Below are positions 1 to 1,214 of a stretch of DNA of 64,000 nucleotides, piece by piece. This DNA is from the human T2T-CHM13v2.0 reference genome, Homo sapiens: the NCBI GenBank assembly GCA_009914755.4, contig CP086569.2:1600001-1664000 (forward strand), read 5' to 3'. The stretch's first letter is position 1. Every line of letters starts with the position of its first letter. The translations under genes were made by a program, and so were the position numbers. A model generated the notes under the pieces. The model was not told the origin of the DNA and did no database searches. It was given only the letters and a program-made list of their open reading frames with translations.

Positions 1-1214
1 AGGCTGGAATAGTGCAGTGGCACGATCTTGGCTCACTGCAACCTCTGCCTCCTGGGTTCAAGCGATTCTCCTGCCTCAATCTCCTGATTAGCTGGGACTA
101 CAGGCGTGTGCCACCATGTCTGGCTAATTTTTATATTTTTAGTAAAGACAGGGTTTCACCATGTTGGCCGGGCTGGTCTTGAACTCCTGACCTCAGGTGA
201 TCTGCCCGCCTCAGCCTCCCAAAGTTCTGGGATTACAGGCATGATCTACTGCATCTGGCCTATTCTTTAAATTTTTCTTGTGTGTGTGTGTGTGTGAGTT
301 GGAGTCTTGCTCTGTCACCCAGGCTGGAATAGTGCAGTGGCACGATCTTGGCTCACTGCAACCTCTGCCTCCTGGGTTCAAGTGATTCTCCTGCCTCAGC
401 CTCCTGATTAGTTGGGATTACAGGCGTGCGCCACCATGCTTGGCTACTTTTTGTATTTTTAGTAGAGACAGAGTTTCACCATGTTGGCCAGGCTGGTGTC
501 GAACTCCTGACCTCAGGTGATCTGCCTACCTCGGCCTCCCAACATGCTGGGATTACAGGCCTGAGCCCCTGCACCCAGCCTATTCTTTAAATTTTGTGTG
601 TGTGTATGCATGTTATTTTGGAGTCTTGCTCTGTCACCCAGACTGGAATAGTGTAGTGGCAGGATCTCAGCTCACTGCAACCTCTGCCTCCTGGGTTCAA
701 GCAATTCTCCTGCCTCAGCCTGCTGATCAGCTGTAACTACAGGCATGCGTCACCATGCCCGGCTAATTTTTGTATTTTTAGTAAAGACTAAGTTTCACCA
801 TGTCGGCCAGGCTGGTCTCGAACTCCTGACCTCAGGTGGTCTGCCTGCCTTGGCCTCCCAATGTGCTGGGATTACAGGTATGAGCCCCTGTACCCAGCTT
901 ATTCTTTACATTTTGTGTGTGTGCGTGTGATTTTGGAGTTTTGCTCTGTCGCCCAGGCTGTAATAGTGTAGTGGCACGATCTTGGCTCACTGCAACCTCT
1001 GCCTCCTGGGTTCAAGTGATTCTCCTGCCTCAGCCTGCTGATCAGCTGGAACTACAGGCACCTGCCACCATGCCCGGCTAATTTTTGTATTTTTAGTAAA
1101 GACCAAGTTTCACCATGTTGCCAGGCTGGTCTCGAACCTTGGACCTCAGGTGATCCGCCTGCCTTGCTTGGCCTCCCAAAGTGCTGGGATTACAGGCGTG
1201 AGCCACCGCGCCGG
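1..1214 (-). repeat. Tandem array of ~3.8 units (~315-323 bp each) of Alu(-) plus a ~35-bp (GT)n-containing spacer; the window starts inside the array
   Basis: Alu antisense bodies at 1-260, 294-580, 617-899 and 931-1214. Each is followed by 'tattctttaaatttt(c)ttgtgtgtgtg'. The units share derived substitutions (for example ctcctgatTAGctggga, tagtaAagac). Confidence 0.85.

What the first reader, a model, noticed from the sequence alone, without database searches (positions are those of the whole stretch)
1..1214. Tandem array of four or more Alu+(GT)n units (~320-bp period), truncated by the window edge
Four consecutive Alu(-) copies are separated by a conserved ~35-bp spacer, tattctttaaattt(t)(c)ttgtgtgtgtg. 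The Alu copies share derived substitutions (ctcctgatTAG.., tagtaAagac, gagcccctg.acccagc), so they arose by duplication of one Alu+flank unit, not by four independent insertions. The copies differ by ~10%, so the array is old or is diverging quickly. The array may extend upstream of position 1.
Basis: seen in the sequence. Interest (0 to 1): 0.55.

Follow-up and report, generated by a model that had tools for sequence, protein, structure and literature searches.

The report
Old tandem duplication of an Alu unit
Four neighbouring Alu elements at the start of this primate window are copies of one roughly 319-base unit, amplified long ago by unequal recombination; this is a real but ordinary kind of repeat.

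Summary
Window 1-1214 holds 3.8 head-to-tail copies of a 319-bp unit (TRF, 88% match). Each unit is an AluS-type element on the minus strand plus a T-run/(GT)n tail and a 14-nt non-Alu core, TATTCTTTA[A/C]ATTT. The units descend from a common genomic copy rather than from four insertions. All four carry a 3-nt insertion seen in 0 of 43 other Alus in the window. They share 5 of 6 CpG decays in the same direction (mean 0.43, maximum 4, in 20,000 quartets of independent Alus). The core occurs only at the three junctions. Pairwise identity is 0.866-0.906, against 0.824 for independent AluS pairs. The array is old: U3/U4 split roughly 19-28 Myr ago and the other units earlier. The most likely mechanism is unequal homologous exchange between head-to-tail Alus. 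U3 looks like a hybrid of U4 (left part) and U2 (right part), with a borderline p of 0.05. Two other Alu triplets in the window show the same hybrid polarity (p=0.0001 and 0.029). Whether the seed was one Alu or two adjacent Alus is unresolved; I lean towards two. I could not extend the sequence leftward. This is a new member of a well-known kind and of low interest. The only mildly notable point is that the window contains four such duplications.

The parts
1..260 (-). Unit 1 (U1): AluS-type body, cut by the window edge (about 22 nt of the Alu 3' end and its tail lie off-window)
   Evidence: 87.7% identity to the AluSx probe over Alu positions 1-257. Carries the AAT insertion at 8-10. Complete Alu 5' end ...ctggcc abuts the core at 261.
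261..295 (-). Spacer 1: 14-nt core TATTCTTTAAATTT (261-274), then TTCTT and (GT)8-9. On the Alu strand this is the degenerate A-tail/(AC)n of U2 followed by the non-Alu core.
   Evidence: exact core match at 261.
296..580 (-). Unit 2 (U2): full-length AluS-type body
   Evidence: 88.9% identity to AluSx. AAT insertion at 328-330. Closest of the four units to consensus (non-CpG JC 0.040).
581..613 (-). Spacer 2: core TATTCTTTAAATTT (581-594), then T and an interrupted (GT)n
   Evidence: exact core match at 581.
614..899 (-). Unit 3 (U3): full-length AluS-type body and a probable hybrid. Its left ~240 alignment columns resemble U4 and its right end resembles U2.
   Evidence: U3+U4 sister relationship has 89-99% bootstrap. 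Maximum chi-square breakpoint lies between columns 238 and 245, with 19:8 sites left of it and 3:10 right of it, permutation p=0.05. Shares the A->C and CCCAG variants with U2 at the Alu 5' end.
900..928 (-). Spacer 3: core TATTCTTTACATTT (13/14), then T and an interrupted (GT)n
   Evidence: 1-mismatch core match at 900.
929..1214 (-). Unit 4 (U4): the right-most AluS-type body. Its 5' terminus is 2-3 nt shorter than in U1-U3 and keeps 4 of 4 terminal CpGs. It is followed by unique flank, not by the core.
   Evidence: 86.7% identity to AluSx. AAT insertion at 962-964. CpG table. Right edge GCGCCGG|TGTAGTTAACTTTCC has no significant core match, p=0.18.

Best explanation
This is a short, ancient tandem array whose repeating unit of about 319 bp is a whole AluS element on the minus strand. 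The unit also includes the Alu's degenerate tail, which had already turned into a T-run/(GT)n microsatellite, and a 14-nt stretch of non-Alu junction DNA. The array was not built by retrotransposition. It arose and was later remodelled by unequal homologous exchange between head-to-tail Alu copies. That exchange could be non-allelic homologous recombination between sister chromatids or homologues, or replication template switching, which would leave the same product. Each exchange adds one unit and creates a hybrid Alu made of the left part of the right-hand partner and the right part of the left-hand partner.

Shown: the four units descend from one genomic copy, at least across the Alu 3' half and the junction. 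The junction DNA is identical between units. U3 and U4 are the most recent sisters.

Inferred: the exchange mechanism, from the hybrid polarity of U3 (borderline) and from two clear-cut neighbouring examples. Also inferred is that the seed was most likely two independently inserted adjacent AluS elements (A on the left, B = U4 on the right). That model predicts at least one more unit to the left of position 1. The array has no evident function. It is neutral repeat DNA tens of millions of years old, and it may still vary in copy number.
For: Period and copy number come from TRF: 319 bp, 3.8 copies, 88% match. Evidence for common descent after insertion: (1) a 3-nt insertion in 4 of 4 units and 0 of 43 other Alus, with the motif found only four times in the window against 0.00 expected; (2) a G->T change in all four units; (3) 5 of 6 fully decayed CpG sites decayed in the same direction, against a mean of 0.43 and a maximum of 4 in 20,000 quartets of independent Alus; (4) the 14-nt non-Alu core at all three junctions and nowhere else at up to 1 mismatch; (5) (GT)n at the same tail position three times; (6) unit-pair identity of 0.866-0.906 against a mean of 0.824 and a maximum of 0.883 for 465 independent AluS-like pairs. 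Evidence for unequal exchange: U3 matches U4 on the left (19:8 sites) and U2 on the right (10:3), permutation p=0.05 (sites listed). The same polarity is clear in the window's two other Alu triplets. The cluster 2 middle unit gives p=0.0001. The cluster 3 middle unit gives p=0.029 and is visibly AluS-type on the left and AluY-type on the right, with a TSD (TGCAATCACC) around the left Alu and a 57-nt spacer duplicated at 92.5% identity. Evidence for a two-Alu seed: all derived states shared by all four units lie in alignment columns 61-180, the Alu 3' half (5 of 11 CpG sites there against 0 of 10 in the 5' half, plus the indel and the G->T). U1-U3 share CpG decays at Alu positions 8, 10 and 57 where U4 keeps CG. 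U4's 5' terminus is truncated differently. The core is absent to the right of U4. Literature: Alu/Alu-mediated rearrangements leave a chimeric Alu and occur by NAHR or template switching (PMC6071635). Head-to-tail Alu pairs at about 310-bp spacing are abundant substrates (PMC3592446). TE-derived tandem repeats expand gradually (PMC3389668).
Against: The hybrid signal inside this array is only borderline: p=0.05 for U3 and p=0.09 for U2, the latter with the opposite polarity. It also rests largely on hypermutable CpG sites. Substitution-only phylogeny does not robustly unite all four units (56% and 12% bootstrap). A few sites conflict with any single simple history, including tagtaAagac in U1, U3 and U4 and columns 212 and 267 in U2-U4. 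The contrast between the left and right halves in shared CpG decay is weak (Fisher p about 0.035, one test). The left end of the array, which would decide between one-Alu and two-Alu seeds, lies outside the window and could not be retrieved. No orthologous or population data were available, so the age and any copy-number variation are inferred only.
Confidence: 0.78

Rival explanations
1. Single-Alu seed. One AluS with its tail and a few flanking bases was duplicated, either by slippage or unequal exchange between its own short target-site duplications or by a breakpoint-anywhere tandem duplication. The first pair was then expanded by further unequal exchange.
For: All four units carry the AAT insertion and the shared CpG decays of the Alu 3' half. 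The core, read on the Alu strand as AAATTTAAAGAATA, starts with A's and directly abuts each Alu 5' end, as a TSD would. Initiation of TE-derived repeats between short flanking direct repeats is documented (PMC3389668). A weak TTAAcTTT match to the core exists 6 nt right of U4.
Against: The model predicts a copy of the core immediately right of U4. The best match there is 7 of 8 nt, offset, and not significant (p=0.18), while the three internal cores are 13-14 of 14 identical. No derived state is shared by all four units in the Alu 5' half. U4's 5' terminus differs in length and keeps 4 of 4 CpGs that U1-U3 have lost. The two neighbouring triplets in the window both fit the two-Alu layout.
Confidence: 0.17
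2. Four independent Alu insertions into the same hotspot, with each new Alu landing in the previous one's tail or TSD, so that the 14-nt spacer is a re-used target-site duplication.
For: Head-to-tail Alu pairs produced by insertion near A-tails are very common, with a genome-wide spacing peak near 310 bp (PMC3592446). The core is AT-rich and resembles an L1-endonuclease target. Substitution-only bootstrap support for a clade of all four units is weak.
Against: Independent copies would not share a private 3-nt insertion (0 of 43 controls) or 5 of 6 same-direction CpG decays (P<5e-5). They would not share a (GT)n tract at the same tail position, nor the ACGG->TTGG change at the Alu 3' end. Their pairwise identity also exceeds that of nearly all independent pairs.
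Confidence: 0.02
3. Independent neighbouring Alus that were later homogenised by gene conversion, with no change in copy number.
For: Mosaic similarity patterns are also what gene conversion produces. Alu-Alu gene conversion is known.
Against: Conversion between Alus would not create three identical copies of a non-Alu core and tail microsatellite between them. The strictly constant period of 319-320 bp also argues for unit duplication.
Confidence: 0.02
4. Assembly artefact: a falsely expanded or mis-joined repeat.
For: Tandem repeats are error-prone in assemblies, and the array touches the window edge.
Against: The units differ by 9-13%, with unit-specific indels such as the CTTG insertion in U4. 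Reads would therefore place them unambiguously, and a collapsed or duplicated artefact would give near-identical copies.
Confidence: 0.01

Closest known systems
Alu/Alu-mediated rearrangement (AAMR) duplications, by NAHR or template switching between same-orientation Alus (PMC6071635)
   Same: The substrates are same-orientation Alus. The product is one extra copy of everything between equivalent points of two Alus. The junction is a chimeric Alu. U3 here, and the middle units of clusters 2 and 3, show the expected polarity.
   Different: Described AAMRs are mostly deletions or duplications of 0.8 kb to Mb scale between distant Alus, and they are often pathogenic. Here the partners are immediately adjacent, so the duplicated segment is just one Alu plus about 35 nt. 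The process was also iterated to at least 4 units and fixed tens of Myr ago.
TE-derived minisatellites/satellites of the human genome (Ahmed & Liang 2012, PMC3389668)
   Same: It is a tandem repeat whose unit derives from a transposable element, expanded stepwise, with older arrays being more diverged. Alus are a major contributor (about 1,600 associated repeats).
   Different: That catalogue is dominated by repeats of internal TE fragments. Here the unit is a complete Alu plus tail plus junction, so the period (319 bp) equals the ordinary Alu-to-Alu spacing.
Head-to-tail '2-Alu tandems' formed by independent insertion (Gluncic & Paar 2012, PMC3592446)
   Same: Same geometry and same period range: a genome-wide peak near 310 bp, equal to 282 bp plus the A-tail.
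   Different: Those are independent insertions. Here the copies share post-insertion mutations and identical junction DNA. Such pairs are the likely raw material for arrays like this one, not the same thing.
Composite-element arrays of T2T-CHM13, for example 5SRNA_Comp with an AluY inside each of 128 units (bioRxiv 10.1101/2021.07.12.451456)
   Same: A whole Alu is carried as part of a tandemly amplified unit, and the Alu inserted before the amplification.
   Different: Those units are multi-kb composites at very high, near-identical copy number. This is a 4-unit (or slightly larger), 10%-diverged, Alu-only unit.

Membership tests
Alu SINE (AluS-type) | Dimeric 7SL-derived body of about 282 nt matching the Alu consensus over its full length | tested here: met
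   Each unit aligns to Alu positions 1-277 or so at 86.5-88.9% identity. Of the AluSx, AluY and AluJo probes, AluSx is the best match.
Alu SINE (AluS-type) | 3' A-rich tail | tested here: met
   The tail is present but degenerate: a T run plus (GT)n on the + strand, which is (AC)n plus A-rich sequence on the Alu strand, at all three visible tails. That Alu tails seed microsatellites is from my own knowledge, not tested here.
Alu SINE (AluS-type) | Flanking target-site duplication for each insertion | tested here: inconclusive
   The 14-nt core abuts the 5' ends of U1-U3 and could be a TSD, but its partner would lie left of the window. No significant copy lies to the right of U4 (p=0.18).
Tandem duplication array (TE-derived tandem repeat) | At least two head-to-tail copies with a constant period, including the non-TE junction | tested here: met
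   TRF gives period 319 and 3.8 copies. The core is 13-14 of 14 identical at three junctions and absent elsewhere in the window.
Tandem duplication array (TE-derived tandem repeat) | Copies share mutations acquired after insertion, so they are not explained by the source element | tested here: met
   The AAT insertion is in 4 of 4 units and 0 of 43 controls. CpG-direction concordance is 5 of 6 against a mean of 0.43 (P<5e-5). Caveat: I could not search a whole primate genome to exclude a rare source lineage carrying these variants.
Alu/Alu unequal-exchange product (AAMR/NAHR) | Chimeric Alu at the novel junction, made of the left part of one partner and the right part of the other | tested here: inconclusive
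   U3 has a breakpoint between columns 238 and 245 with the expected polarity, but permutation p=0.05; U2 gives p=0.09. The test is clearly met in the neighbouring cluster 2 (p=0.0001) and cluster 3 (p=0.029, plus an AluS/AluY subfamily switch).
Alu/Alu unequal-exchange product (AAMR/NAHR) | Partner Alus in the same orientation | tested here: met
   All four units are on the minus strand.
Cluster of independent Alu insertions | Each element has its own tail length, its own TSD and no private shared mutations | tested here: not met
   The units share the junction core, the tail microsatellite, the indel and the CpG decays.
SVA-type composite retrotransposon | (CCCTCT)n, antisense Alu-like fragments, a 35-50-bp VNTR and a SINE-R module (definition from my own knowledge) | tested here: not met
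   Units are full-length Alus with a 319-bp period, and the sequence shows no hexamer, short-unit VNTR or SINE-R part.
Copy-number-variable VNTR/macrosatellite | Different unit numbers among individuals or species | not testable with these tools
   No primate genome, pangenome or long-read resource is available. Searches of the public collections found no copy of the locus.

The most novel reading that the evidence does not exclude
This 64-kb stretch may be a regional hotspot for Alu-Alu unequal exchange and tandem duplication, and the 319-bp array may be one still copy-number-variable product of it. Four separate Alu-containing tandem duplications lie within about 52 kb: the array at 1-1214, triplets at about 21.3-22.25 kb and 34.0-35.0 kb, and a 650-bp duplication at 50.5-51.75 kb. 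They involve about 12 of roughly 50 Alus and sit among at least eight minisatellites and four long tetranucleotide arrays. If real, the locus would be a natural series of exchange products of different ages. That series could be used to study how adjacent SINEs nucleate satellites, and whether tail microsatellites such as (GT)n or nearby inverted Alu pairs promote it.
Probability: 0.25. Interest if true: 0.35.

Novelty: new member of a known kind. Interest (0 to 1): 0.14.

Why it matters
It matters little on its own. The array is a neutral, old repeat of a type expected wherever Alus sit head to tail, and genome browsers would already show it as four AluS elements plus a TRF call. It has some modest value. 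It is a clean small example of how retrotransposon copies become a tandem array, moving from SINE to satellite. It may be a copy-number-variable site that short-read pipelines mis-handle. And with three similar structures nearby, it marks the region as prone to unequal exchange, which bears on structural-variant calling and local genome instability.

Tried and rejected
1. Extending the window leftward and finding orthologues. A 30-nt right-flank probe and two array-specific probes gave 0 hits in genome contigs and metagenome contigs (those scans are now exhausted). Four exact-protein look-ups of local ORFs were not on record. The number of units left of position 1 therefore remains unknown.

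2. Rfam at gathering thresholds found nothing in the whole window, so no structured-RNA reading is supported.

3. The substitution-only tests were weaker than expected. Shared non-CpG substitutions gave p of about 0.02-0.05. NJ bootstrap for a clade of all four units was 56% on all columns and 12% on non-CpG columns. I therefore do not rest the case on them. The indel, the CpG-direction test and the junction core carry it.

4. Core as TSD at the right edge: not significant (p=0.18).

5. Higher-order (two-unit) periodicity: rejected. Adjacent units (0.892, 0.888, 0.906) are more alike than alternate ones (0.866, 0.880).

6. Locus identification. Open frames outside Alus showed only L1 fragments, VNTR frames and low-complexity sequence. 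A verbatim literature search for the 30-bp VNTR unit found nothing. A full six-frame Pfam scan (prepared) was not run because it would not change the verdict.

7. SVA, assembly artefact, gene conversion alone and independent insertion were all considered and rejected, as set out under the rival explanations and the membership tests.

Full report
WHAT IS THERE. The window is primate DNA. An Alu probe finds about 50 full or partial Alus, covering 23% of the 64 kb. At its left edge, Tandem Repeats Finder reports a single array at 1-1204 with period 319, 3.8 copies, 88% matches and 1% indels. Reading the sequence gives four minus-strand Alu bodies at 1-260, 296-580, 614-899 and 929-1214. The first is cut by the window edge. 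They are separated by three spacers at 261-295, 581-613 and 900-928. Each spacer is a 14-nt non-Alu core TATTCTTTA[A/C]ATTT (14/14, 14/14, 13/14), then a short T run, then (GT)n. On the Alu strand this reads as Alu body, (AC)n, A-rich remnant, core, and then the 5' end of the next Alu. The bodies are AluS-type, 86.5-88.9% identical to an AluSx probe. The only corrections are that there are three spacers, not four, and that only 14 nt of each is truly conserved non-Alu sequence.

DUPLICATION OR INDEPENDENT INSERTIONS? I used the window's other Alus as an internal control.

(i) All four units carry a 3-nt insertion (+ strand ctgg-AAT-agtg; Alu strand CACT-ATT-CCAG). None of the 43 other Alus has it. 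The 17-nt motif occurs four times in the window, only in the units, with 0.00 hits expected by chance.

(ii) At CpG sites where all four units have decayed, 5 of 6 decayed in the same direction (Alu positions 143, 175, 207, 214, 239). Quartets of independent AluS-like copies average 0.43 such sites, with a maximum of 4 in 20,000 draws. At those positions the controls show both TG and CA, so the states are not source-gene variants.

(iii) A non-CpG G->T (gaGtag to gaTtag/gaTcag) is present in all four units.

(iv) The core occurs only at the three junctions. The (GT)n tract and the ACGG->TTGG change at the Alu 3' end recur in all three visible tails.

(v) Unit pairs are 0.866-0.906 identical, against a mean of 0.824 and a maximum of 0.883 for 465 independent AluS-like pairs.

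Independent insertion, even into a re-used target site, cannot explain (i) to (iv).

Two weaker results should be stated openly. Shared non-CpG substitutions exceed control quartets only modestly (p of about 0.02-0.05). NJ bootstrap unites all four units in only 56% (all columns) or 12% (non-CpG columns) of replicates, while U3+U4 gets 89-99%. The stem before the first duplication was therefore short. tagtaAagac is missing from U2. gagcccctg.acccagc is confined to U2 and U3 and is largely CpG decay.

AGE. Non-CpG Jukes-Cantor distances are 0.056 for U3-U4 and 0.085-0.103 for the other pairs. Each unit is 0.040-0.070 from consensus. Assuming 1.0-1.5e-9 substitutions per site per year, U3/U4 split roughly 19-28 Myr ago, and the earlier duplications occurred about 32-48 Myr ago, soon after the AluS inserted. 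These are rough inferences, but they favour 'old' over 'diverging quickly'. Adjacent units are more alike than alternate ones, so there is no higher-order two-unit repeat.

MECHANISM. Unequal exchange between two head-to-tail Alus, A-s-B, yields A-s-[B-left + A-right]-s-B. This adds one extra unit, an identical spacer and a hybrid Alu whose left part matches its right neighbour.

The window provides its own positive controls. Cluster 3 (33,996-35,044) has an AluY-type left copy flanked by TGCAATCACC on both sides, which is a TSD. It has a 57-nt non-Alu spacer present twice at 92.5% identity. Its middle Alu follows the right-hand AluS-type copy up to column 273 or so, then switches to the left-hand AluY-type copy, including the diagnostic 2-nt gap. 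The maximum chi-square permutation test gives p=0.029. Cluster 2 (about 21,300-22,252; period 319-320) shows the same polarity with p=0.0001, and its three Alus form a clade with 79-94% bootstrap.

In the array under review, U3 matches U4 over the left part (19 against 8 sites) and U2 over the right part (10 against 3). The breakpoint lies between columns 238 and 245, and p=0.05. The clearest sites are the A->C and CCCAG variants that U2 and U3 share at the Alu 5' end. This is the expected polarity, but it is only borderline, and U2 gives no clear signal (p=0.09).

The literature describes exactly this class of event. Alu/Alu-mediated rearrangements leave a chimeric Alu, by NAHR or by replication template switching (PMC6071635). 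I cannot distinguish between those two routes here.

ONE SEED ALU OR TWO? Several observations lean towards two adjacent, independently inserted AluS elements, with U4 as the right-hand founder. Every derived state shared by all four units lies in the Alu 3' half: 5 of 11 CpG sites there against 0 of 10 in the 5' half, plus the indel and the G->T. In the 5' half, U1-U3 share decays at positions 8, 10 and 57 where U4 still has CG, and U4 keeps 4 of 4 terminal CpGs. U4's 5' terminus is 2-3 nt shorter than the complete termini of U1-U3. The core is not repeated to the right of U4 (best match 7 of 8 nt, p=0.18), although a TSD-mediated duplication of a single Alu would require it there. Both neighbouring triplets also have the two-Alu layout.

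The two-Alu model predicts at least one further unit to the left of position 1, lacking the AAT insertion. The evidence consists of few sites, most of them CpG. I put about 0.55-0.6 on the two-Alu seed, about 0.2-0.25 on a single Alu plus flank, and about 0.95 on tandem duplication by some form of unequal exchange.

COMPARISON WITH WHAT IS KNOWN. Head-to-tail Alu pairs are abundant, with a genome-wide spacing peak near 310 bp (PMC3592446), so the 319-bp period is simply an Alu plus its tail. TE-derived tandem repeats are common, with about 1,600 associated with Alus, and they expand stepwise (PMC3389668). Arrays whose unit includes a whole Alu are documented in the T2T repeat survey. This array is a small, old member of that known kind. 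It is not an SVA, not a satellite with higher-order structure, and not an assembly artefact, since its units differ by 9-13% and have private indels.

WHAT COULD NOT BE DONE. I could not extend the sequence leftward or obtain orthologues. Four collection scans and four exact-protein look-ups found nothing. The locus was not identified. Copy-number polymorphism is untestable with these tools.

VERDICT. The feature is ordinary: a new member of a known kind, with interest of about 0.14. The only mildly unusual aspect is regional. There are four separate Alu-containing tandem duplications and many minisatellites in a single 64-kb window, which may mark a domain prone to unequal exchange (probability about 0.25, modest interest if true).

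Noticed in passing
window 21300-22252: A second tandem array of three minus-strand Alus, with period 319-320. The first two are 91.6% identical, the most similar Alu pair among the controls. They share odd variants (ccagcacatccggc, ggggtttttcYgtgttggtcagtctgg). An AATTT[C/G]T core precedes the first tail and follows Alus 1 and 2 but not Alu 3. The middle unit is a clear hybrid: its left ~90 columns resemble the right neighbour and the rest resembles the left neighbour (permutation p=0.0001). TRF did not call this array.
   Followed up: yes
window 33996-35044: A third triplet of minus-strand Alus (TRF period 349, 2.8 copies, 80% match). This is a textbook unequal-crossover product. 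The left Alu is AluY-type and flanked by the TSD TGCAATCACC. A 57-nt non-Alu spacer is duplicated at 92.5% identity. The middle Alu is AluS-type on the left and AluY-type on the right, and the right Alu is AluS-type.
   Followed up: yes
window 50493-51752: A two-copy tandem duplication of about 600-650 bp, carrying a whole plus-strand Alu (50569-50850 and 51217-51491, 89% identical) plus about 370 bp of unique flank at 80-93% identity. Its period exceeds TRF's 500-bp limit, so it was found only by the Alu-masked self-BLAST.
   Followed up: partly
window 929-1730: The array's last unit (minus strand) and the plus-strand Alu at 1446-1730 form a closely spaced inverted Alu pair. The arms are 85-91% complementary and lie 231-238 nt apart. 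This is a potential hairpin or dsRNA-forming structure. From my own knowledge such pairs are recombinogenic, but whether this one helped destabilise the array is speculation.
   Followed up: partly
window 23616-24368: A very regular 30-bp minisatellite (GCCTTGAAGGTTGTGAAATTGCTCACGGCT, 25 copies, 95% match). Because 30 is a multiple of 3, it leaves long open frames on both strands (up to 375 codons), which are probably meaningless. A verbatim literature search found nothing.
   Followed up: partly
window 6282-6905; 12846-13272; 14039-14589; 36638-37074; 46324-47074: Further minisatellites with units of 234 bp (x2.7), 61 bp (x7, with 123-bp and 184-bp higher periods), 17/102 bp (x32), 49 bp (x9) and 53 bp (x14, in the most GC-rich part of the window). 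This is an unusually high density of tandem repeats for 64 kb.
   Followed up: no
window 52464-53230; 53937-54398; 59696-60820; 61638-62542: Four long, degenerate tetranucleotide arrays of 0.4-1.1 kb. The first is (AGAT)n and the other three are (TCTA)n, the complementary strand. The first two therefore form an inverted pair about 700 bp apart. The last two share 68-69% identity over about 1 kb.
   Followed up: no
window 1245-1273 region of U4 (alignment columns 245-248 and 270-273): U4 carries two private clustered changes: TCCT->CTTG (gaacCTTGgacc) and a 4-nt CTTG insertion about 25 nt downstream (gcctgcCTTGcttgg). The same tetramer appears twice, which hints at a small templated or slippage event.
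   Followed up: no
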